Of a stretch of DNA of 64,000 nt, positions 5,966 through 63,974 are shown piece by piece. Origin of the DNA: Dehalococcoidia bacterium (GTDB lineage: Bacteria > Chloroflexota > Dehalococcoidia > Lucifugimonadales > GCA-2712585); assembly GCA_965221895.1 (NCBI GenBank), contig CBDCSX010000002.1, positions 1,595,366-1,659,365 of the forward strand, read 5' to 3'. How positions within the stretch are numbered: the stretch's first letter is position 1; the number at the start of each line of letters is the position of its first letter. Made by a program: the position numbers and the translations under genes. The notes beneath the pieces are model-generated. The model searched no databases. It was not told where the DNA came from and saw only the letters and a program-made list of their open reading frames with translations.

Positions 5966-7021
5966 CTATTCGTCTCCGTTGTATCTCACGCCGCAGATGG
6001 TCTCCATGACCAAACGGGTGACGACGTAGGGGTCCATGTTGGCGTTGGGCCGCCGGTCTTCGATGTATCCCTTCTGGTCATGGTGCACCTGCCAGGGAAT
6101 GCGCACCGACGCGCCCCTGTCCGACACGCCGTATCGGAATTCCTTGTAGGAGCAGGTCTCGTGCAGCCCGGTGAGCCGCTCTTCGATGCCATAGCCGTAG
6201 TTTTCAATATGGACTTCGTGGCGGGTGCCCAGGGCCTCCGCCGCGTCGATGCAGGGCTGGTAGCTGTGGCGCATCTCCCTGGTGGAGAAATTGGTATGAG
6301 CGCCGGCGCCGTTCCAGTCGCCGCGGGCGGGCTTGGGGTAGAGAGTAGCGTTGATGCCAAAGTCCTCGGCCACCCGGTAGAGGAGCCAACGGGCGAGCCA
6401 GAGCTGGTCGGAGACCTCCACGGCGGGCAAGGGGCCAATCTGAAACTCCCACTGTCCGGGCATAACCTCGGCGTTGATGCCCTCAATCTTCAACCCGGCC
6501 TCCAGGCAAGCCTCCAGGTGAGCCTCCACTACCTCCCGGCCGTGGACCTCGTCGTCGCCCACGCCGCAGTAGTAACCACCCTGGGGCGGGGGATAGCCGG
6601 ACTCCGGGAAGCCCAGAGGTCGAATGCCCTTGAAGAAGGTATACTCCTGCTCGATGCCGAAGATCATTTCGTGTGTTCTAGTCATTTCGGCAACGGCTGC
6701 GCAGGCTGCGCGGGTGTTGCTCGCGTGGGGAGTCAGATCCGTGTTCAGTACCTCGGTCATAACCAGGATGTCTCCACGGTCCCTCTCCAGCAACGTGTCG
6801 AGCTTCTTGCGAACCGGGTCCTTTATGGAGAGAACGGGCCGTATGACGCAATCGGAGTTCGAGCCGACTGCCTGGTTGGTGCTGGAGCCGTCGAAGCCCC
6901 AGATGCCTGGCTGCTCAACTCTCATGCCAACCCTGGTCTTGGAACGGATCTTGGCGGTGGGCTTGGACCCATCTATCCATATATACTCTTCTCTTCGATA
7001 GTCTTCCCTTCTTATCAGCAT
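5966..7021 (-). CDS. glnII: Glutamine synthetase, type II (eukaryote-like GSII)
   Basis: ~350 aa with GSII hallmarks 'EQEYTFF' and 'MPGQWEFQIGP'. Confidence 0.8.
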   Translation of the reverse strand: MLIRREDYRREEYIWIDGSKPTAKIRSKTRVGMRVEQPGIWGFDGSSTNQAVGSNSDCVIRPVLSIKDPVRKKLDTLLERDRGDILVMTEVLNTDLTPHASNTRAACAAVAEMTRTHEMIFGIEQEYTFFKGIRPLGFPESGYPPPQGGYYCGVGDDEVHGREVVEAHLEACLEAGLKIEGINAEVMPGQWEFQIGPLPAVEVSDQLWLARWLLYRVAEDFGINATLYPKPARGDWNGAGAHTNFSTREMRHSYQPCIDAAEALGTRHEVHIENYGYGIEERLTGLHETCSYKEFRYGVSDRGASVRIPWQVHHDQKGYIEDRRPNANMDPYVVTRLVMETICGVRYNGDE

Positions 7022-19425: not shown

Positions 19426-20637
19426 TTACGATATCTGATACTTGCCAATGGCGTTGAAATCTATCTGTACCCAAGCCTCTGCCCGCTTTTCAAAGACAAC
19501 CTTGATGAATCCCAATTCTCCCAATCTATTGAGTTCTCTTATGATGGTTCGGACAGTCACTTCTCGATAGGCGGCTCTCACGAAGGCAGATTCCAACGCC
19601 TCGTGTAGAGCGACTTTACGGGACGGACTCTCATCAAACGGGTCTTCCGGCTCCGTCTCATCCAAGAGAAATTGCAACAGTTGAACTTCCCTATCGTTCA
19701 ACAAACGACGTCGAGGGCTGACCTTTCTGTTGTGACTGGCCACCAGCATTTGCCTATACATTACCCTGTTTAGCTTGGTCTTGACGAAGTTGTTTATGCC
19801 CATAAGTTCTTCCAAGAACCCCTCTACACCAAACTGTATGAAGGCAGTCACGTTCATCTTGGGCGCCGTACGTCTGGCCTCATTCAGGCGAACCCTATAC
19901 CTGTCCGCGTTCCTGTAAAAGAAGTTGGACAACCCATAGAATCCGTGCACGTTGTACCCGTGTTGGAACAGTATTCCGGCCTCCAGTAGCCTGGAAACCC
20001 TGCCGTTGCCGTCACCAAAAGGATGAATGGTCACTAAGAAAAAGTGCGCCAGCAGGGCTTGAATAACCGGCATCTCAGATGGCAATCTTCCGGAGTTCAG
20101 GAAGGACACGAATTCTTCCATCATCCGGGGCAAGTCGTTGTGAGACGCGCCCCAATGAATCCCGCCGAGATCCGGTGCACCCACCCTAACGGGATTATTC
20201 CGCAGCGCGCCGGGCACGTTATCTTTCTCGTCCGAACCCTGGGTAAGCAGCCTATGCATCGTCAGGATGTCGCCCATGCTCACTGGCGACGAACCCGGGG
20301 CGAACCGGTCTTTGACCCAGTCCTGCCCTCTGGCAGCATTGGCTATCTGCGTTATCTCGCGTGACTTATCCGTTGGCGACACGGCCGCCTCCCGTTCGAT
20401 CCGCTCTATTTGCACCTGAACTTCGGTCTCCGACAGAGGGTTGCCTTCAATGGCCGTCGTCCCATGGACGGCCCGCACCTTATTCAACCTGTCCAGTTGC
20501 TTAACCCATTCTGGGGCTAGGACCAAGTGGCTCGCCGACTGTCTATGGGCCTCAATGCTAATCACCGTATTGAATAATGCGCTGCCCTCCAAGTAGTAAT
20601 CAAAGCCAAACCGTTCCCAGAAATTCTTCGAGTCCAA
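19426..20637 (-). CDS. Fic/DOC family protein (AMPylation-type) with a C-terminal winged-helix-like extension
   Basis: Fic motif 'HPFGDGNGRVSRLL'. The locus is lower in GC. Confidence 0.8.
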   Translation of the reverse strand: MDSKNFWERFGFDYYLEGSALFNTVISIEAHRQSASHLVLAPEWVKQLDRLNKVRAVHGTTAIEGNPLSETEVQVQIERIEREAAVSPTDKSREITQIANAARGQDWVKDRFAPGSSPVSMGDILTMHRLLTQGSDEKDNVPGALRNNPVRVGAPDLGGIHWGASHNDLPRMMEEFVSFLNSGRLPSEMPVIQALLAHFFLVTIHPFGDGNGRVSRLLEAGILFQHGYNVHGFYGLSNFFYRNADRYRVRLNEARRTAPKMNVTAFIQFGVEGFLEELMGINNFVKTKLNRVMYRQMLVASHNRKVSPRRRLLNDREVQLLQFLLDETEPEDPFDESPSRKVALHEALESAFVRAAYREVTVRTIIRELNRLGELGFIKVVFEKRAEAWVQIDFNAIGKYQIS

Positions 20638-23456: not shown

Positions 23457-23524
23457 CCTCCCCTTAGGGGCGATTAGCGAAACACCCCTACCAGAGTGAC
23501 GTAGTTTGTGTTTCGGCCAGTGGT

Positions 23525-24091
23525 TCAGGCCCGGGGCGTTAGCTCCGAGACTTCCACTCCCGTAAGGACTGCAACCACCGGGTCGGCCAACTGGCCGGCC
23601 CGTTCCTTTATCCCGTCCCGGTCCAGCGTTCCCACCGGGTGGTGGGTGTAGACCACCGGAAAGTTGGGCGCGCCCCATGTCTCCGCCATGCCGGTAGCCG
23701 TAACCTCAAACCGGTCGGTGCAAATTACCGCTGCGGGGATGCCTGCCTTCTCCACGTGAATTCCGTCGTGCACACTGCACGCGCTGCAGGACCCTCAATC
23801 ACCCACCGCGACAATTGCTCCGTCGCATTCCTTGGCCATCCGCTCCACAATCTGCGGGTCTGCCGGTTTCGAGGCGGAGGGCTTGCGATGGTACATCACC
23901 ACTGAAGTCTCGAACCGGTCTTCCAGAATGGACGCCAGGTCCTCCAGAAGCTCCTTGGCGTTTGTCTTGCTGTCGTCAATGAGGCCAATCCGCTTGCCCC
24001 TAATATCCAGAAGCCTTGGCGCAAAGCTGAAGCTTGCCACCAGGGGTTGCGTCGTGGGATCCACCAGTTCATAGCCGCCGTTCTTCGTCAT
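23525..24091 (-). CDS. UGSC-family selenoprotein. It forms a single gene with an in-frame UGA (Sec) at 23795-23797; the ORF track split it into ORFs of 98 and 82 aa.
   Basis: Minus-strand read across the junction: '...AIVAVGD-TGA-GSCSACSVHDGIHVEK...' gives the U-G-S-C motif. A hairpin 'cctgcagcgcgtgcagtg' begins 3 nt after the UGA and is SECIS-like. Confidence 0.7.
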
Positions 24092-24191
24092 AACACGCTC
24101 CTTCTGCCGCTGTTAGATATAAATGGGCGAGACCATCGGGGCGGTCTTCGCTGAATATGTTCTTGAATAGACTCTCCTGTGCTTTAGGGCA

Positions 24192-25265
24192 TCAGCCGGA
24201 GGGCCACTGCACCCTGCGGGTCACCGATTCCGAGGAGACCCTAGGCCCCCAGCTTGGAATCACCGCCATGTGGGAGGACTCCGCGCCGCCCGCGAACACA
24301 ACCATTATATCTTCCGGCGAGAGAATAAGCTTCAGATACTTCTGCTCGTCGTCGGCAGTTATGTTTCCTTCCAGCATACCGCCGCGCTTCAGGTCGGCCA
24401 ACGACCGTTTTAGCCTTGGGTGCAAGTAGCGCCGGATGTCGTCCTTCGTCCAATCCTCCCAAACGTCGCTTGTGCCGGCAAACACCACTACCACCTCCCC
24501 TTGGCGCACCACGGTGGAGGTGTCGCCAACGGAACCGGCGGAGGCCATGGACGTGCCCAGGCTGGAGATAACGTCGGCGGCGGAGTAGAGCATCGTCTCC
24601 GGGCGGTTGCTGGCCCGCACCTGACGCGGCCCCTCGCAGGCGAAGACCGTGACGGCGCTGTCCTCCCGGTCGAAGCCCCGCTCCACATGAAGCGGCGTCC
24701 AAGAGGTTCCCGCCTCGTTCTCGGCGATGCAGTAGCTGAACTTACCCGGATGCCCCAGGATTGTGCGGTCGAAAAGGCCCGGTATTGCGGCACAGGTGTT
24801 CATCAGGATGAGCCGGACGGCCCGCCCGATGGTGGAGTTGGCGCGATTGCCGGGGCCAAACAGGTTGTTGCGGCTGTTGATGCCCAGGGCAGGGACTACC
24901 GGGCCGTTGAGAATAACGAGAATGGCGGCCCCGCCGAGGCTGGACGACGGGCCGATGAGGTTGAACGCCGGGTCCAGTATTGCCTCCGCCGTCGCGAGCA
25001 CCACCGGGAAGTATTCCGGCTTGCAGCCCGCCATCACCGCGTTGGCGGCCACCTTCCCTACGGTAACCTCTCGACGACGCTCCGGCAGGCCGCCAATGAC
25101 CTCATCCGGCGGTCGGTTGCCAACGGACAGGAACTCATTCACCCGCTGCAGCGTGGGCGGCACTACGGGTAGGCCATCCGTCCAGCCCAAGGCGTAACAC
25201 TGCTCGACGGCCTCTACAGGGTCGTTCCATTGAGACTGTACCAGGGAACCCAAACCGGAGGTCAT
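24192..25265 (-). CDS. Hypothetical protein of unidentified family, adjacent to the selenoprotein
   Basis: 357-aa ORF, Gly/Ser-rich, with no motif I can name with confidence. Confidence 0.4.
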   Translation of the reverse strand: MTSGLGSLVQSQWNDPVEAVEQCYALGWTDGLPVVPPTLQRVNEFLSVGNRPPDEVIGGLPERRREVTVGKVAANAVMAGCKPEYFPVVLATAEAILDPAFNLIGPSSSLGGAAILVILNGPVVPALGINSRNNLFGPGNRANSTIGRAVRLILMNTCAAIPGLFDRTILGHPGKFSYCIAENEAGTSWTPLHVERGFDREDSAVTVFACEGPRQVRASNRPETMLYSAADVISSLGTSMASAGSVGDTSTVVRQGEVVVVFAGTSDVWEDWTKDDIRRYLHPRLKRSLADLKRGGMLEGNITADDEQKYLKLILSPEDIMVVFAGGAESSHMAVIPSWGPRVSSESVTRRVQWPSG

Positions 25266-25296: not shown

Positions 25297-25704
25297 TCAT
25301 TGTCCTACGGTGGAAGCGCCGGCGGAGGAGATCTCCTCGTCCTCTTCGCCCGACCCGCCGGCGGTCCCGACGGCCCCGACGAGAACGCCACCCTTAAAGA
25401 CGGGCATGGCCCCCTGTTGGGGCATGAAGCGACCATGGTGCATCTGCTGCAGCCCGTGAGCCACAGGGCGGGCAGCGCGCTCCAGCAGCTCGCCGCTGGG
25501 CACGCCCTCGTAGGCGACGGTAGACACGGCCTTGCCCCGGCTGCTCTCGGTCCACCACCAGATAGCACCGTCCATCCTTGCGGCGGCCACCAGGTCGCCA
25601 CGGGCGTCCACGACGGAGACGGCAACGACGAGGTTGAGGCTGCGGGCCTTGTCGAAAGCCGCTTCCAGGATGTTCATTCCATCTTGCAGGGTGATGCCGG
25701 ACAT
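25297..25704 (-). CDS. GlcG/HbpS-family heme-binding protein (DUF336)
   Basis: 'VVAVSVVDARGDLVAAARMDGA...GAVGTAGGSGEEDEEI' DUF336 pattern. Confidence 0.7.
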   Translation of the reverse strand: MSGITLQDGMNILEAAFDKARSLNLVVAVSVVDARGDLVAAARMDGAIWWWTESSRGKAVSTVAYEGVPSGELLERAARPVAHGLQQMHHGRFMPQQGAMPVFKGGVLVGAVGTAGGSGEEDEEISSAGASTVGQ

Positions 25705-25777
25705 ACTTTGTCTCCGTCGCTAGGGTTTGGGGTCAGAATAGCGTAAGGGGGACAGAGTGGTCAAACGGGGGGGGCTA

Positions 25778-43436: not shown

Positions 43437-44339
43437 TCACCCTCCGTAATAGCTCCTAATTCCATCTATTAACACCTTTGGAGCCGTTGCGAGGCTGATC
43501 TTCCATGCTCCAGATGCCGCCTTTTCTATCATTTTCCCTACCCAAGCCTGAACTTTCGGTCCAAATTGACCTTGAGAAGGATCCTGCTCAGTAGCAACTA
43601 TTCTTTTGAGTTCACTCAGGTCATTCTCATCGACCTTATGGCCAGCCAAGTGATTTACAAGCGATGCAATGTCACCCTTGCGAATGGGATTAGCTTGTTG
43701 TTGTACGTTTTCTCCGCTGGCTACGATGTTGTGGTCGCCATGGATATTGATGTTGAAAAGGTTCCTCACCGTCTCTTGCTTCACTTCGCCACTCTTCAGG
43801 TTTTCCGACGTGACATTGTTCTCCTGCAGGCCAAGTATGAAATCTAACAGCTTGTTCTTCACCTTATCCAGAATTCCAGCGATGTGTGAGGGGAGAATCG
43901 GCTGGTGTGCATTTACTAAAATCATGCCATCTGTCATTTGTGTTGCATCTCTAGCCAACATCACGAATTCTACAGGCCATTCCCTCTTATATTTCCCGTC
44001 CCCCTGGTTTAGCATAGCTTCAAGCTCTCCCACACCCTGGGAAAGGACCAATTTCTCAGCGAATTCCTTTACCGGGCTAGGTAGACTTTGCGTAGGAAGT
44101 GGTACCTTCCTTGCCATCGTCTGGAAGGAGCCACTGAAAGTGCCAAGATTGAGAGGGCGAGAACCTCTGTAGTTAGGCACTTTTTTCAAATCTGGGTAGC
44201 CATTGAGTTCAGAGTCAACCCATTCCCGAAATTCAGGTAACCCCAAATCGTTGGCGAGTATCTTCGCCTTCCTTAGGGTATTCGAGACACTCGCTGATTC
44301 ATCAATCAAGTCAGAGCGAATATTGTCGATTAGAGCCAT
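43437..44339 (-). CDS. AbiTii-like abortive-infection domain protein; the islet is lower in GC
   Basis: N-terminal 'LIDNIRSDLIDESASVSNTLRKAKILANDLGLPEFREWVDSELNGY' resembles the AbiTii N-terminal domain. Confidence 0.5.
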   Translation of the reverse strand: MALIDNIRSDLIDESASVSNTLRKAKILANDLGLPEFREWVDSELNGYPDLKKVPNYRGSRPLNLGTFSGSFQTMARKVPLPTQSLPSPVKEFAEKLVLSQGVGELEAMLNQGDGKYKREWPVEFVMLARDATQMTDGMILVNAHQPILPSHIAGILDKVKNKLLDFILGLQENNVTSENLKSGEVKQETVRNLFNINIHGDHNIVASGENVQQQANPIRKGDIASLVNHLAGHKVDENDLSELKRIVATEQDPSQGQFGPKVQAWVGKMIEKAASGAWKISLATAPKVLIDGIRSYYGG

Positions 44340-57422: not shown

Positions 57423-58766
57423 CTAAGCCCTCTCTCCTTCCGTAACAGGCACCGCGACAATGGGCGGCGGCGCGGCCTCCTGCGGTAAGCCGGGCCGGCC
57501 CTTCTTCTCACGAATAGTCAGAATGAGGATGGTGGCAATCACCAGCAGAACCAGGTTAGACCAGATCGCAAGATCGTAGGTCCCCCGAGCGTCGAATAAA
57601 TAGCCGCCCAAGGCGGCACCCATGCCGGACCCGAGTGGCATGACCGCGAACATGGTCCCATAGATTGTCCCCAAATGCTTCAAGCCAAACTTGTCGGAGG
57701 CAAAGGCGGCGGTGAGGGCTACCACTGCGTTCCAGGACAGCCCCACCAGGATGATGCCTGTCAGGAGAGTCCCCAGCCCCATAGCGGGTATACCGAGGAA
57801 GGAAATCCCCATGGAAAGAAGCACCAGCACGAAGCCGACACAACGCAGGGCGTAGGAGAAGCTGAGGAATGACCTGCGACCATGCCTATCGGAGAGATGT
57901 CCCAGCACGAGAGCGCCCAGGATGGCGCATCCGCCGATGAGGCTGAAGCTGCCGGCGGCTATCAACCGGCTGTACCCGAGGTCGGTGATGTAGGCCACGA
58001 AGTGAGCGTTCACGAAGCTCATGGTGTAGCCTCATACGAAGTAGCCGAAGGTTAGCTTCCAGAAGAAGGGCGTCTTGAACGCTTCGACAAAGGTAGAATC
58101 CCGAAAGGCCAGGGCAGGGCTGCCACTCTGTCCGTCGGCGCTAACGATGGTTGGAGGCGCGCCTTCGGGCTTCAGGCCCACGTCTTCGGGGCGATTCTTT
58201 ATGAACAGCAAGCCTATCGGGAAAATGACCAGCAGCAACAGGATGCCAAGGAATTGGTAGGCTTGCTGCCAGCTGAACCACTCCACGAATACGGACGACA
58301 CGGGCACTAGCACCATGCCGCCGATGGCGCCGCCGCCGTTGATGAGTCCCAAAGTCAGCCCGCGTCGCTGGAAGAACCAGGAGCTGACAATCTTGGTCAG
58401 AGTCGGCCCCGCCGCCAGGGTGAGGCCGATGCTCATGACGGCAAATATGGCAAAGAGGTGTACCAGGGTCTGGATGTAGGGCAGAAGCAGCAGCATGACG
58501 CCGACTATGGCGATGCCGATGAGGGCCACGGCCTTGGGGCTGTATCTATCGGCTAAATACCCACCCAAGGGCCGCAGCAGGCCGGAAAGCATGAAGGTTG
58601 TGCCGAAGGCGGTGGCGAGGACGGCGCGGCTCCAGCCGAACTCCTCCGTCATGGGCTTGAGGAAGACGCCGAAGGAGAAGTGGCTGCCCGACGCGCCGAA
58701 GACGATGAAGGCGCAGGCAAAGGTAACTATCCAGCCGTAGTAGAGGTTTCCCCGGTTCAACAGCAT
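57423..58766 (-). pseudogene. MFS transporter (OFA-like) interrupted by a single in-frame TGA at 58032-58034. It is either a pseudogene or a recoded site.
   Basis: Minus-strand read '...KLTFGYFV-TGA-GYT-MSFVNAHFVAYITD...'. The halves of 244 aa and 199 aa are each ~6 TM, together making one 12-TM transporter. Confidence 0.6.
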
Positions 58767-63263: not shown

Positions 63264-63974
63264 CTAAGGCACAATTTCACATATGAATTCGATTGCATCT
63301 TCGACTCTTGTCTTAATTGCAATTAGTTGAGGTAGCGAGAATCTTCCCGCTGGGCCATGCGCACCAGAGTTAAGGTCTTTGAACAAGACAGACAGATTCT
63401 TGATGTTTGCCTCGGTAAAATCCTCAAGGGCTTCATTGCCTAGTCCGCGGCGATCCAAACAATAATGTATTTTGGCACGTCGAGTAGGCATACCACGCTC
63501 AGTAACTTGACAGTCTGGAAACCATGACAACACCTCGCCGTCGGGAGCTCCGCAATTGAGAATATCCGCGAGGATTTCCCTTGAGCTTGTACAAAAATGC
63601 CGGGCAGCATCCGGGTTATGAGGGTTCAGAGCAAATAGGGCACCGGACCAGCGATCCTGTATGTCTACAGGATAACCCTTTAGCGATTCCGTTAACTTCG
63701 TACTAGTAAGTTCTTCATCTCCCAACTGTACTTGGCTGTTGTATCCAAGCAACGTGTTGAGCACATTCGCGCTGTTGGCAGTGTCTCGTTCAGCGAGGTC
63801 TGAGAGAAATGGATTCGCATTACTATGGTCTAGTCGTTCATACGCAGAGTTGAGAGCAATAACAGACAAATGCGACGAGGTATAGCTGATGGGGATTGTT
63901 CGAGAAGAAAGACTCTTTAGGGCGGATCGTAGTCGGGATCTGTTGGCCCTGACGCGTGCATTGTGTGCCCGCAC
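63264..63974 (-). CDS. Hypothetical protein upstream of the TIR-like gene on the same strand. It may extend beyond the window edge.
   Basis: ORF only; lower GC. Confidence 0.3.
   Translation of the reverse strand: MRAHNARVRANRSRLRSALKSLSSRTIPISYTSSHLSVIALNSAYERLDHSNANPFLSDLAERDTANSANVLNTLLGYNSQVQLGDEELTSTKLTESLKGYPVDIQDRWSGALFALNPHNPDAARHFCTSSREILADILNCGAPDGEVLSWFPDCQVTERGMPTRRAKIHYCLDRRGLGNEALEDFTEANIKNLSVLFKDLNSGAHGPAGRFSLPQLIAIKTRVEDAIEFICEIVP

What the first reader, a model, noticed from the sequence alone, without database searches (positions are those of the whole stretch)
23525..24091. UGSC-family selenoprotein with in-frame UGA and a SECIS-like hairpin, mis-split into two ORFs
ORFs 23795..24091 and 23525..23773 are collinear in one frame across a single TGA: '...ECDGAIVAVGD-U-GSCSACSVHDGIHVEKAG...'. 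This gives the U-G-S-C motif that names the family, and Cys homologues carry CGSC. A stem-loop 'cctgca-gcgcg-tgcagtg' begins 3 nt 3' of the UGA. This implies that the organism has Sec decoding machinery (selA/selB/selD/tRNA-Sec lie outside the window), and other genes in this genome may be mis-annotated for the same reason.
Basis: partly seen in the sequence, partly recalled or inferred. Interest (0 to 1): 0.65.

Follow-up and report, generated by a model that had tools for sequence, protein, structure and literature searches.

The report
Known UGSC selenoprotein gene, correctly spotted

Summary
Confirmed, and already known. Window 24091..23525 (minus strand) is one 188-codon reading frame with a single in-frame TGA (23797..23795) in the motif D-U-G-S-C. 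With U replaced by C, it matches Pfam PF24696 (UGSC, 6e-56, full length) and NCBIfam NF041046 "UGSC family (seleno)protein" above its cutoff. All 80 genomic relatives (Dehalococcoidia/SAR202 MAGs, 53-99% identity) carry TGA at this codon. More distant relatives carry TGC (Cys). UGA is an ordinary stop elsewhere in the window.

It is the overlapping stem-loop C17-A22/U26-G31 with loop G23-U24-G25 (23781..23767). Its six codons show no synonymous variation in 81 sequences, it pairs in 100% of cells, and two of its pairs carry compensatory changes. It meets all four published bacterial SECIS criteria.

Sec machinery is absent from the window and from 1.33 Mb of relatives' DNA, so the whole-genome test was not possible.

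Added value: the fold is Rossmann/flavodoxin-like, not thioredoxin-like. The gene is almost always adjacent to an unannotated 357-aa partner family, which suggests a two-subunit enzyme of unknown function.

The parts
23525..24091 (-). Complete UGSC-family selenoprotein gene: 188 codons, ATG at 24091..24089, true stop TGA at 23527..23525
   Evidence: Pfam PF24696 at 6e-56 covering profile positions 1-171 of 172, and NCBIfam NF041046 at 148.9 bits against a cutoff of 125. Collinear tblastn matches over residues 1-188 in 80 loci.
23795..23797 (-). Sec codon UGA (codon 99) in the motif D-U-G-S-C
   Evidence: TGA in 80 of 80 genome loci and 25 metagenome loci; TGC (Cys) in 54 more distant loci. UGA is a normal stop for 11 of 37 Pfam-supported ORFs in the window.
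23764..23783 (-). Bacterial SECIS hairpin inside the ORF (nt 15-34 counted from the U of UGA). Core stem C17-A22/U26-G31 = 23781..23767; apical loop G23-U24-G25 = 23775..23773; bulged A32; lower pairs G16-C33 and C15-G34.
   Evidence: Codons +5 to +10 show no synonymous variation in 81 distinct sequences, while flanking invariant residues vary freely at wobble positions. 100% of cells paired, 2 compensatory pairs, 0 of 500 shuffles reached this. The extended stem pairs in 98.4% of cells. MFE is -9.7 kcal/mol. It meets all four bSECIS criteria of PMC13188914. It is in the same register as the verified E. coli fdhF SECIS.
23773..23790 (-). It is mutually exclusive with the SECIS and probably not functional.
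   Evidence: 94% of cells paired, no compensatory change, no better than shuffles. Only 10 nt from the UGA and -6.1 kcal/mol, so it fails 2 of the 4 bSECIS criteria.
24098..24103 (-). Shine-Dalgarno-like AAGGAG, 6 nt upstream of the ATG
   Evidence: Read directly from the sequence.
24192..25265 (-). Conserved 357-aa partner gene, 100 nt upstream and co-directional. It belongs to a large family with no Pfam or NCBIfam model.
25297..25704 (-). HbpS/GlcG-like gene (PF03928) upstream on the same strand. It may share the transcription unit, but it is conserved only in the closest relatives.
   Evidence: Present in only about 10 of 80 loci. One promoter-like site at 25764..25735, which is not above chance.

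Best explanation
Window 24091..23525 (minus strand) is a single gene for a 188-residue selenoprotein of the UGSC family.

Shown:
- It is one continuous, conserved reading frame.
- UGA at codon 99 aligns with Cys in Cys-form homologues.
- An 18-20 nt RNA element lies 12-13 nt downstream of the UGA and is under selection at the nucleotide level. It folds as CGUGCA-GUG-UGCACG, with two further pairs and a bulged A.

Inferred from established knowledge of bacterial Sec decoding: this hairpin is the bSECIS. It binds SelB-GTP-Sec-tRNASec while the ribosome sits at the UGA, so selenocysteine is inserted instead of terminating. The machinery (selA, selB, selC, selD) must lie elsewhere in the genome.

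The protein, modelled from a 45%-identical Cys form, is a three-layer Rossmann/flavodoxin-like alpha/beta domain. The Sec-x-x-Cys pair sits between strand 3 and the following helix.

Most likely mechanism (inferred, moderate to low confidence): Sec99 is the nucleophile and Cys102 the resolving residue, cycling through a selenenylsulfide as in the remotely similar Sec region of PrdB/GrdB reductases. The protein would act as the small catalytic subunit of a two-subunit enzyme, with the co-encoded 357-aa protein as the large subunit. The substrate is unknown.
For: Family: PF24696 at 6e-56 over its full length, and NF041046 above its cutoff.

Sec codon:
- 80 of 80 plus 25 loci carry TGA, and 54 carry TGC at the same column.
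- Downstream codons are under purifying selection. Window against relatives over 78 codons averages 19.5 synonymous-only and 27.8 amino-acid-changing differences, and many invariant residues have variable wobble bases.
- TGA terminates 11 of 37 other genes in the window.

SECIS:
- No synonymous variation in codons +5 to +10.
- 100% pairing; U19-A29 to G-C and G20-C28 to C-G compensatory changes plus one G-U; 0 of 500 shuffles.
- An independent Sec clade has a different stem, CGUCGGC-GGUC-GCCGACG, at the same place. Its 12 Sec forms use invariant codons, while 28 Cys forms encoding the identical peptide vary at every wobble position.
- All four consensus criteria are met.
- The G23-U24 loop and the U26-C30 arm are in the same register as E. 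coli fdhF.

Sec use and tRNASec are documented in Chloroflexi (PMC1794560 and PMC5389517).

Fold: pLDDT 88, pTM 0.83, Rossmann-like.

PrdB/GrdB similarity: 13 of 17 family members hit the PrdB model and 4 hit GrdB, over the Sec region.

Partner: adjacency in 65 of 80 and 71 of 80 loci despite swapped gene order.
Against: - No Sec machinery or tRNA-Sec in the window or in 1.33 Mb of relatives' flanks, so Sec decoding by this organism is inferred, not shown.
- Thermodynamic folding alone is not distinctive in this GC-rich ORF: z = 0.1 for the 81-nt and 42-nt windows.
- True both-side covariation within the register comes from one lineage only (L119/L120). The rest is conservation.
- No Rfam SECIS family matches.
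- The PrdB/GrdB hits are far below membership cutoffs (15-19 bits against 300-602).
- No PrdA/GrdE-like pyruvoyl partner is present, and the partner has no recognisable fold relative.
- No experiment exists for any UGSC protein (PMC13188914).
Confidence: 0.93

Rival explanations
1. The SECIS is the first reader's hairpin, CCUGCA-GCGCG-UGCAGUG (nt 8-25), which starts right after the UGA.
For: It can form 5 bp and is 94% paired across relatives, with C-to-U changes giving G-U wobbles. The 42-nt MFE uses part of this 5' arm in a longer imperfect stem.
Against: It does not explain the invariant wobble bases U24, G27, C30 and C33. It has no compensatory change and is no better than shuffles. It is broken in L119/L120, and 11 of 47 sequences break the 9-23 pair. 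Its UGA-to-loop spacing is 10 nt (the consensus is 16-37), and its MFE of -6.1 is weaker than the -7.5 threshold. The long-stem variant pairs in only 88.7% of cells.
Confidence: 0.04
2. The TGA is a nonsense mutation, a pseudogene or a sequencing error, and the downstream ORF is a dead remnant.
For: No Sec machinery is seen in the window. Database gene calls stop at this codon.
Against: The TGA is conserved in 105 independent loci at identities down to about 40%. The downstream 89 codons are under purifying selection, and a nucleotide-level conserved hairpin follows. A sequencing error cannot recur identically in more than 100 assemblies.
Confidence: 0.01
3. These are two separate small genes: a 98-aa protein ending at TGA and an 82-aa protein starting at GTG 23773.
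For: Both ORFs exist mechanically.
Against: The 7 codons between them (GSCSACS) are invariant at the protein level in 81 sequences and contain the family's catalytic motif. Cys forms are single uninterrupted proteins. Both family profiles span the junction as a single match. The GTG lies inside the hairpin, with no ribosome-binding site.
Confidence: 0.01
4. UGA is recoded here, but not to Sec. For example, hairpin-stimulated read-through inserts Trp, Cys or Arg.
For: Sec machinery could not be verified. One relative (L162/P0001) has CGA (Arg) at this codon and keeps the hairpin.
Against: The aligned residue in 54 non-UGA homologues is Cys, the classic Sec/Cys signature. The hairpin matches the SelB-type consensus and the fdhF register. 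The family is curated as a selenoprotein (NF041046). Chloroflexi have tRNASec.
Confidence: 0.02

Closest known systems
UGSC-containing protein family (Pfam PF24696; NCBIfam NF041046 'UGSC family (seleno)protein'), described from Sargasso Sea and GOS metagenomes (PMC2398784)
   Same: Full-length profile match above the curated cutoffs. The U-G-S-C motif, with Cys homologues carrying CGSC. Marine origin (SAR202/Dehalococcoidia). Sec forms dominate among close relatives, as in GOS (255 Sec against 21 Cys).
   Different: Nothing essential; this is a member. Refinements made here: the fold is Rossmann/flavodoxin-like, not the thioredoxin-like fold guessed in 2008. This clade adds a third Cys (UxxCxxC) that the Cys forms lack. 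A near-obligate partner gene was identified.
E. coli fdhF bacterial SECIS (sequence verified in 5419 of 5426 E. coli genomes)
   Same: An in-ORF hairpin immediately 3' of the UGA. G23-U24 in the apical loop counted from the U of UGA, followed by the identical 3' arm U26-G27-C28-A29-C30. An upper stem containing UGCA/UGCA, and one bulged base. A sister UGSC clade even carries fdhF's GGUC tetraloop.
   Different: A 3-nt GUG loop rather than the 4-nt GGUC. The bulge is an A on the 3' side, whereas fdhF has a bulged U on the 5' side. There is no long lower stem reaching back to the UGA. SelB binding has not been tested.
Selenoprotein B of the D-proline, glycine, sarcosine and betaine reductases (PrdB, GrdB, GrdF, GrdH; TIGR04483, TIGR01917, TIGR01918)
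   Same: Weak but consistent profile similarity centred on the Sec region (E from 5e-4 to 1e-2; 13 of 17 UGSC members hit PrdB). The same U-x-x-C arrangement, and U-x-x-C-x-x-C in this clade.
   Different: Scores are 15-19 bits against cutoffs of 300-602, so it is not a member. It is much shorter than GrdB. No PrdA/GrdE-type pyruvoyl proprotein, GrdA or thioredoxin genes are nearby. The partner is an unrelated, unannotated family.
Methanogenesis marker protein 7 and McrC of the methyl-coenzyme M reductase activation complex (PDB 8s7v chains H and I)

Membership tests
UGSC family (PF24696 / NF041046) | Whole-protein profile score above the curated cutoff, covering the whole model | tested here: met
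   PF24696: 189.7 bits against 25, profile positions 1-171 of 172. NF041046: 148.9 bits against 125, positions 2-147 of 147.
UGSC family (PF24696 / NF041046) | [U/C]-G-S-C motif at the conserved position | tested here: met
   D98-U99-G100-S101-C102. D98, S101, C102, S103 and A104 are invariant in alignment A1. The same column is TGA or TGC in 159 loci.
Bacterial selenoprotein gene (SelB/SECIS-dependent UGA recoding) | In-frame UGA aligned with Cys in homologues, with a conserved coding sequence downstream | tested here: met
   105 TGA and 54 TGC loci. Synonymous variation with invariant amino acids downstream.
Bacterial selenoprotein gene (SelB/SECIS-dependent UGA recoding) | bSECIS consensus: 3-9 nt apical loop on a 4-16 bp stem; G in the first two loop positions (G[G|U]); 16-37 nt between UGA and loop; MFE <= -7.5 kcal/mol (PMC13188914, Fig. 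2A) | tested here: met
   Loop GUG (3 nt). Stem of 6 bp plus 2. 19 nt between the UGA and the loop. -9.7 kcal/mol for nt 14-35.
Bacterial selenoprotein gene (SelB/SECIS-dependent UGA recoding) | selA, selB, selD and tRNA-Sec present in the same genome | not testable with these tools
   None in the 64-kb window. None in 1.33 Mb of relatives' loci by tblastn with E. coli SelA, SelB and SelD, or by ARAGORN run on the window and loci L001-L060. Chloroflexi are known to have selenoproteins and tRNASec.
Bacterial selenoprotein gene (SelB/SECIS-dependent UGA recoding) | Selenium actually incorporated at the UGA | not testable with these tools
   This needs 75Se labelling or mass spectrometry. No UGSC protein has been characterised experimentally.
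Known Rfam SECIS families | Covariance-model match | tested here: not met
   No Rfam match at gathering thresholds in the window, and none relevant at E <= 10 in 23500..24100.
GrdB/PrdB selenoprotein B | Profile score above the curated cutoff | tested here: not met
   TIGR01917: 19.1 bits against 602. TIGR04483: 15.3 against 300. TIGR01918: 16.6 against 65.
GrdB/PrdB selenoprotein B | Homology of the Sec-bearing UxxC region | tested here: inconclusive
   Five related models hit the same region (query 58-164) at E from 5e-4 to 1e-2. 13 of 17 family members hit PrdB. No residue-level alignment or solved PrdB/GrdB structure was available.
GrdB/PrdB selenoprotein B | Genomic association with a pyruvoyl proprotein (PrdA/GrdE) and GrdA/thioredoxin system | tested here: not met
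   The neighbours are an unannotated 357-aa protein, an HbpS-like protein, a family-5 solute-binding protein, an aldo-keto reductase and a class IV aminotransferase.
Thioredoxin-fold redox proteins (the 2008 suggestion for UGSC) | Thioredoxin fold | tested here: not met

The most novel reading that the evidence does not exclude
UGSC is not a free-standing thioredoxin-like redox protein. It is the small Sec-bearing catalytic subunit, remotely PrdB/GrdB-like, of a widespread and completely uncharacterised two-subunit enzyme. Its large subunit is the 357-aa protein encoded next to it. That protein belongs to a family of at least 8000 sequences with no Pfam or NCBIfam model and no solved structural relative. 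The pair would carry out a reductive or group-transfer reaction on a small nitrogenous or organic substrate in SAR202 and in soil bacteria.
Probability: 0.4. Interest if true: 0.55.

Novelty: already known. Interest (0 to 1): 0.22.

Why it matters
For genome annotation, this is a textbook case. A gene caller that ignores Sec splits or truncates the gene, and the protein database already holds several such truncated entries. NCBI's NF041046 model exists to fix exactly this, so nothing new is learned about selenoproteins as such.

It does indicate that this SAR202-type Dehalococcoidia organism uses selenocysteine. Other UGA-interrupted genes may therefore exist elsewhere in its genome; none with a redox motif was found in this window.

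The two modestly useful by-products are these:
1. A comparative definition of the family's SECIS, including a Sec-versus-Cys same-peptide control.
2. Evidence that one of the ocean's most abundant selenoproteins of unknown function is tied to an unannotated partner protein. That gives experimentalists a concrete two-gene unit to express and assay.

Tried and rejected
- Thermodynamic folding of 81-, 42-, 22-, 18- and 15-nt windows against shuffles. Not discriminating in this GC-rich ORF; only the 15-nt core reaches z = -2.4. I therefore relied on comparative evidence.
- Rfam at gathering and at permissive thresholds. No SECIS or tRNA-Sec.
- ARAGORN on the window and on 60 relatives' loci. No tRNA-Sec.
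- Pfam on 57 window ORFs, and tblastn with E. coli SelA, SelB and SelD against 1.33 Mb. No Sec machinery.
- A screen for other TGA-split ORFs in the window. Apart from UGSC, the 48 mechanical candidates are off-frame GC-rich noise or adjacent genes. None has a CxxU or UxxC motif.
A natural Cys form, P0004, was modelled instead.
- PDB sequence searches with the single sequence and with the profile. Nothing.
- The afdb50 library was unavailable.
- P0022 looked like a partner-UGSC fusion. It comes from a 5x-coverage long-read contig and has an out-of-frame tail, so it was rejected as a frameshift artefact.
- I tried to equate the partner with the 'Unknown_1' domain of the GOS paper, but Figure S1A is held only as an image.
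- The exact partner protein of the window is not on record in the contig index.
- A suspected truncated glutamine synthetase (5966..7021) is a normal-length type II enzyme.
- The promoter and terminator scan found nothing above chance.

Full report
**Observation.** On the minus strand, ORF 24091..23795 (98 aa) and ORF 23773..23525 (82 aa) are in the same frame. Translating 24091..23525 gives 188 codons with one internal stop, TGA at 23797..23795, in ...ECDGAIVAVGD-U-GSCSACSVHDGIHVEKAG.... The gene has an AAGGAG ribosome-binding site 6 nt before its ATG and ends at its own TGA at 23527..23525. The one exception is the quoted hairpin string, which starts 4 nt after the UGA rather than 3.

**Family.** With U replaced by C, the protein matches Pfam PF24696 (UGSC) at 6e-56 over profile positions 1-171 of 172. 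It also matches NCBIfam NF041046, "UGSC family (seleno)protein", at 148.9 bits against a cutoff of 125. The family is well known. UGSC-containing protein was one of the most abundant selenoprotein families in the Global Ocean Sampling data (255 Sec forms, 21 Cys forms), and its function was unknown (PMC2398784). It is still listed as uncharacterised in 2022 and 2026 reviews (PMC9312934 and PMC13188914).

**Is the UGA real and recoded?** A scan of one genome per species found 103 relatives, and I kept the best 80. Nearly all are Dehalococcoidia/SAR202 MAGs, plus one Candidatus Entotheonella. The closest, OZ253467.1, is 99% identical.
- All 80 have TGA at the homologous codon, and tblastn alignments run straight through it.
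- A metagenome scan added 25 more TGA loci and 54 TGC (Cys) loci at the same column. Database proteins P0004-P0020 are uninterrupted Cys forms reading GVGD-C-GSCSA.
- Entries P0003, P0007, P0017, P0019 and P0021 are N-terminal halves that stop exactly at ...VAVGD or ...VAIGS. They are gene-caller truncations at the UGA.
- Downstream of the UGA, many residues are invariant while their wobble bases vary. Over 78 downstream codons, the window differs from relatives by 19.5 synonymous-only and 27.8 amino-acid-changing codons on average. That is the pattern of a translated sequence.
- UGA is an ordinary stop in this genome, ending 11 of 37 Pfam-supported ORFs. Recoding must therefore be local.

**The SECIS.** Folding energy alone says nothing here (z about 0.1). 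Comparative data decide. I number from the U of UGA as 1, so window position = 23798 - n.
- Codons +5 to +10 (GCG UGC AGU GUG CAC GAC, nt 16-33) show no synonymous variation in 81 distinct sequences, apart from GAC to GAU in two.
- Flanking residues that are equally invariant (G, S, C, S before; G, I, H, V, E, K after) vary freely at the third position.
- This block folds as C17-G18-U19-G20-C21-A22 / loop G23-U24-G25 / U26-G27-C28-A29-C30-G31. It extends through G16-C33 and C15-G34 with a bulged A32, at -9.7 kcal/mol.

On 47 distinct sequences from three Sec clades, the three candidate structures compare as follows:

| Model | Cells paired | Compensatory pairs | Shuffles reaching it |
|---|---|---|---|
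| B: 17-22/26-31, loop GUG | 100% | 2 (U19-A29 to G-C; G20-C28 to C-G), plus one G-U | 0 of 500 |
| B extended: adds 15-34 and 16-33 | 98.4% | 2 | 0 of 500 |
| C: long imperfect stem from the 42-nt MFE | 88.7% | 0 | no better than shuffles |

A fourth Sec clade (12 loci, peptide UGSCSASAVADG) has a different stem at the same place, CGUCGGC-GGUC-GCCGACG. Its codons +4 to +10 are invariant in all 12 loci. By contrast, 28 Cys-form genes encoding the identical peptide vary at every wobble position. This same-peptide control shows that the nucleotide constraint goes with the UGA, not with the protein.

Against the published bSECIS consensus (3-9 nt loop, 4-16 bp stem, G[G|U] at the start of the loop, 16-37 nt from the UGA, MFE <= -7.5; PMC13188914), model B meets all four criteria.

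I recalled the E. coli fdhF SECIS from memory and verified it by BLAST: an exact match under fdhF in 5419 of 5426 genomes. It has G23-U24 in its loop and U26-G27-C28-A29-C30 as its 3' arm, the same bases at the same distance from the UGA as here.

One caveat: both-side covariation within this register comes from a single lineage (L119/L120). The remaining support is conservation plus the independent clade.

**Sec machinery.**
- The window has no tRNA-Sec (ARAGORN) and no Rfam hit.
- It has no SelA, SelB or SelD among 57 ORFs scanned with Pfam.
- Sixty relatives' loci have no tRNA-Sec.
- tblastn with E. coli SelA, SelB and SelD against all 1.33 Mb held found nothing.

This shows only that the machinery is not linked to the gene. 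Selenoproteins and an 8/4-type tRNASec are documented in Chloroflexi (PMC1794560 and PMC5389517).

**What the protein is like.** The AF2 model of a natural Cys form (P0004, 45% identical; pLDDT 88, pTM 0.83) is a three-layer alpha/beta Rossmann/flavodoxin-like domain. The [U/C]-x-x-C pair sits between strand 3 and the next helix.
- Foldseek finds nothing at E below 1e-3.
- No thioredoxin appears, so the 2008 guess of a thioredoxin-like fold is not supported.
- Five NCBIfam models for selenoprotein B of the proline, glycine, sarcosine and betaine reductases hit the Sec region weakly (E from 5e-4 to 1e-2). 13 of 17 family members hit PrdB. This is consistent remote similarity, but far below membership cutoffs.
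- The third Cys of UxxCxxC is specific to this clade and absent from the Cys forms. Its UGC codon is part of the SECIS stem, so the RNA and the peptide constrain each other here.

**The partner.** The 357-aa ORF 25265..24192, 100 nt upstream, has no Pfam or NCBIfam hit. It has at least 7979 homologues, none with a Pfam domain.
- It lies immediately upstream of UGSC in 65 of 80 genome loci.
- It is adjacent in 71 of 80 metagenome loci. It sits upstream in the SAR202-type clades and downstream in the other Sec clades and the Cys forms. Eight of the remaining nine are contig ends with no room on the side where the partner would lie. Only L144 truly lacks it.
- Adjacency that survives a swap in gene order at 33-74% identity argues for a two-subunit unit.
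- The wider neighbourhood (HbpS-like protein, family-5 solute-binding protein, aldo-keto reductase, class IV aminotransferase, amidohydrolase) is conserved only among the closest relatives.

**Verdict.** It is an already known kind with a curated annotation model, so interest is low. Two corrections apply: the SECIS is the overlapping 17-31 hairpin, and the Sec machinery remains unverified. The by-products worth recording are the clade-wise SECIS definition, the non-thioredoxin fold, and the near-obligate unannotated partner.

Noticed in passing
window 57423..58766 (minus strand): Two MFS-transporter half-genes are in the same frame, separated by a single TGA at 58034..58032. They are ORF 58766..58032 (244 aa, MFS_1 profile 2-212) and ORF 58022..57423 (199 aa, MFS_1 profile 23-193). 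The context is KLTFGYFV-TGA-GYTMSFVN. There is no redox motif, so Sec is unlikely. It could be a split or pseudogenised transporter, or two genes.
   Followed up: no
L162 630..720 (metagenome contig Ga0496633_0101928; protein P0001, also P0002): A 60%-identical UGSC relative has CGA (Arg) where the others have UGA, and AGC where they have GGN. It still keeps the full invariant SECIS block GCGTGCAGTGTGCACGAC, and it has no partner gene beside it. This looks like a Sec-to-Arg copy with a 'fossil' SECIS, possibly an inactivated paralogue.
   Followed up: partly
window 24192..25265 (minus strand) and loci L001-L160: The 357-aa partner belongs to a very large family (at least 7979 database proteins) with no Pfam or NCBIfam model and no solved structural relative. 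Invariant residues include C81, C179, H193, the E62-R63-R64-R65 stretch and a G137-P138-G139-N140-R141-A142-N143 loop.
   Followed up: partly
UGSC codons +5 to +10 in all Sec clades (window 23782..23765): The peptide right after the catalytic motif tracks the SECIS type: ACSVHD with the GUGCA/UGCAC stem, AASVAD with GGCCA/UGGCC, and ASAVAD with GUCGGC/GCCGAC. The hairpin and the protein sequence seem to constrain each other. The extra Cys and His of this clade may be partly by-products of the RNA stem.
   Followed up: partly
L016 and L071 (both on contig CBDFGE010000006.1); loci L018, L021, L023-L030, L039, L070, L073, L074: Some SAR202 genomes carry more than one UGSC gene. About 15 of the 80 genome loci have a UGSC gene without the partner within 6 kb. 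The L023-L030 group instead has tRNA-Leu and tRNA-Cys genes and an aldo-keto-reductase-like gene upstream.
   Followed up: no
window 63264..63974 (minus strand), 43437..44339 (minus strand), 19426..20637 (minus strand): Defence- or toxin-type genes are scattered in the window. A predicted pPIWI-associated nuclease (PF18165) sits at the window's edge, so a prokaryotic Argonaute operon may continue beyond it. There is also an AbiTii protein and a Fic/DOC protein.
   Followed up: no
L161 3001..3831 (protein P0022): An apparent fusion of the partner's C-terminus with the UGSC N-terminus comes from a 5x-coverage long-read contig and ends in out-of-frame sequence. It is most likely a frameshift artefact, not a natural fusion, and it shows how such assemblies can create false domain fusions.
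   Followed up: partly
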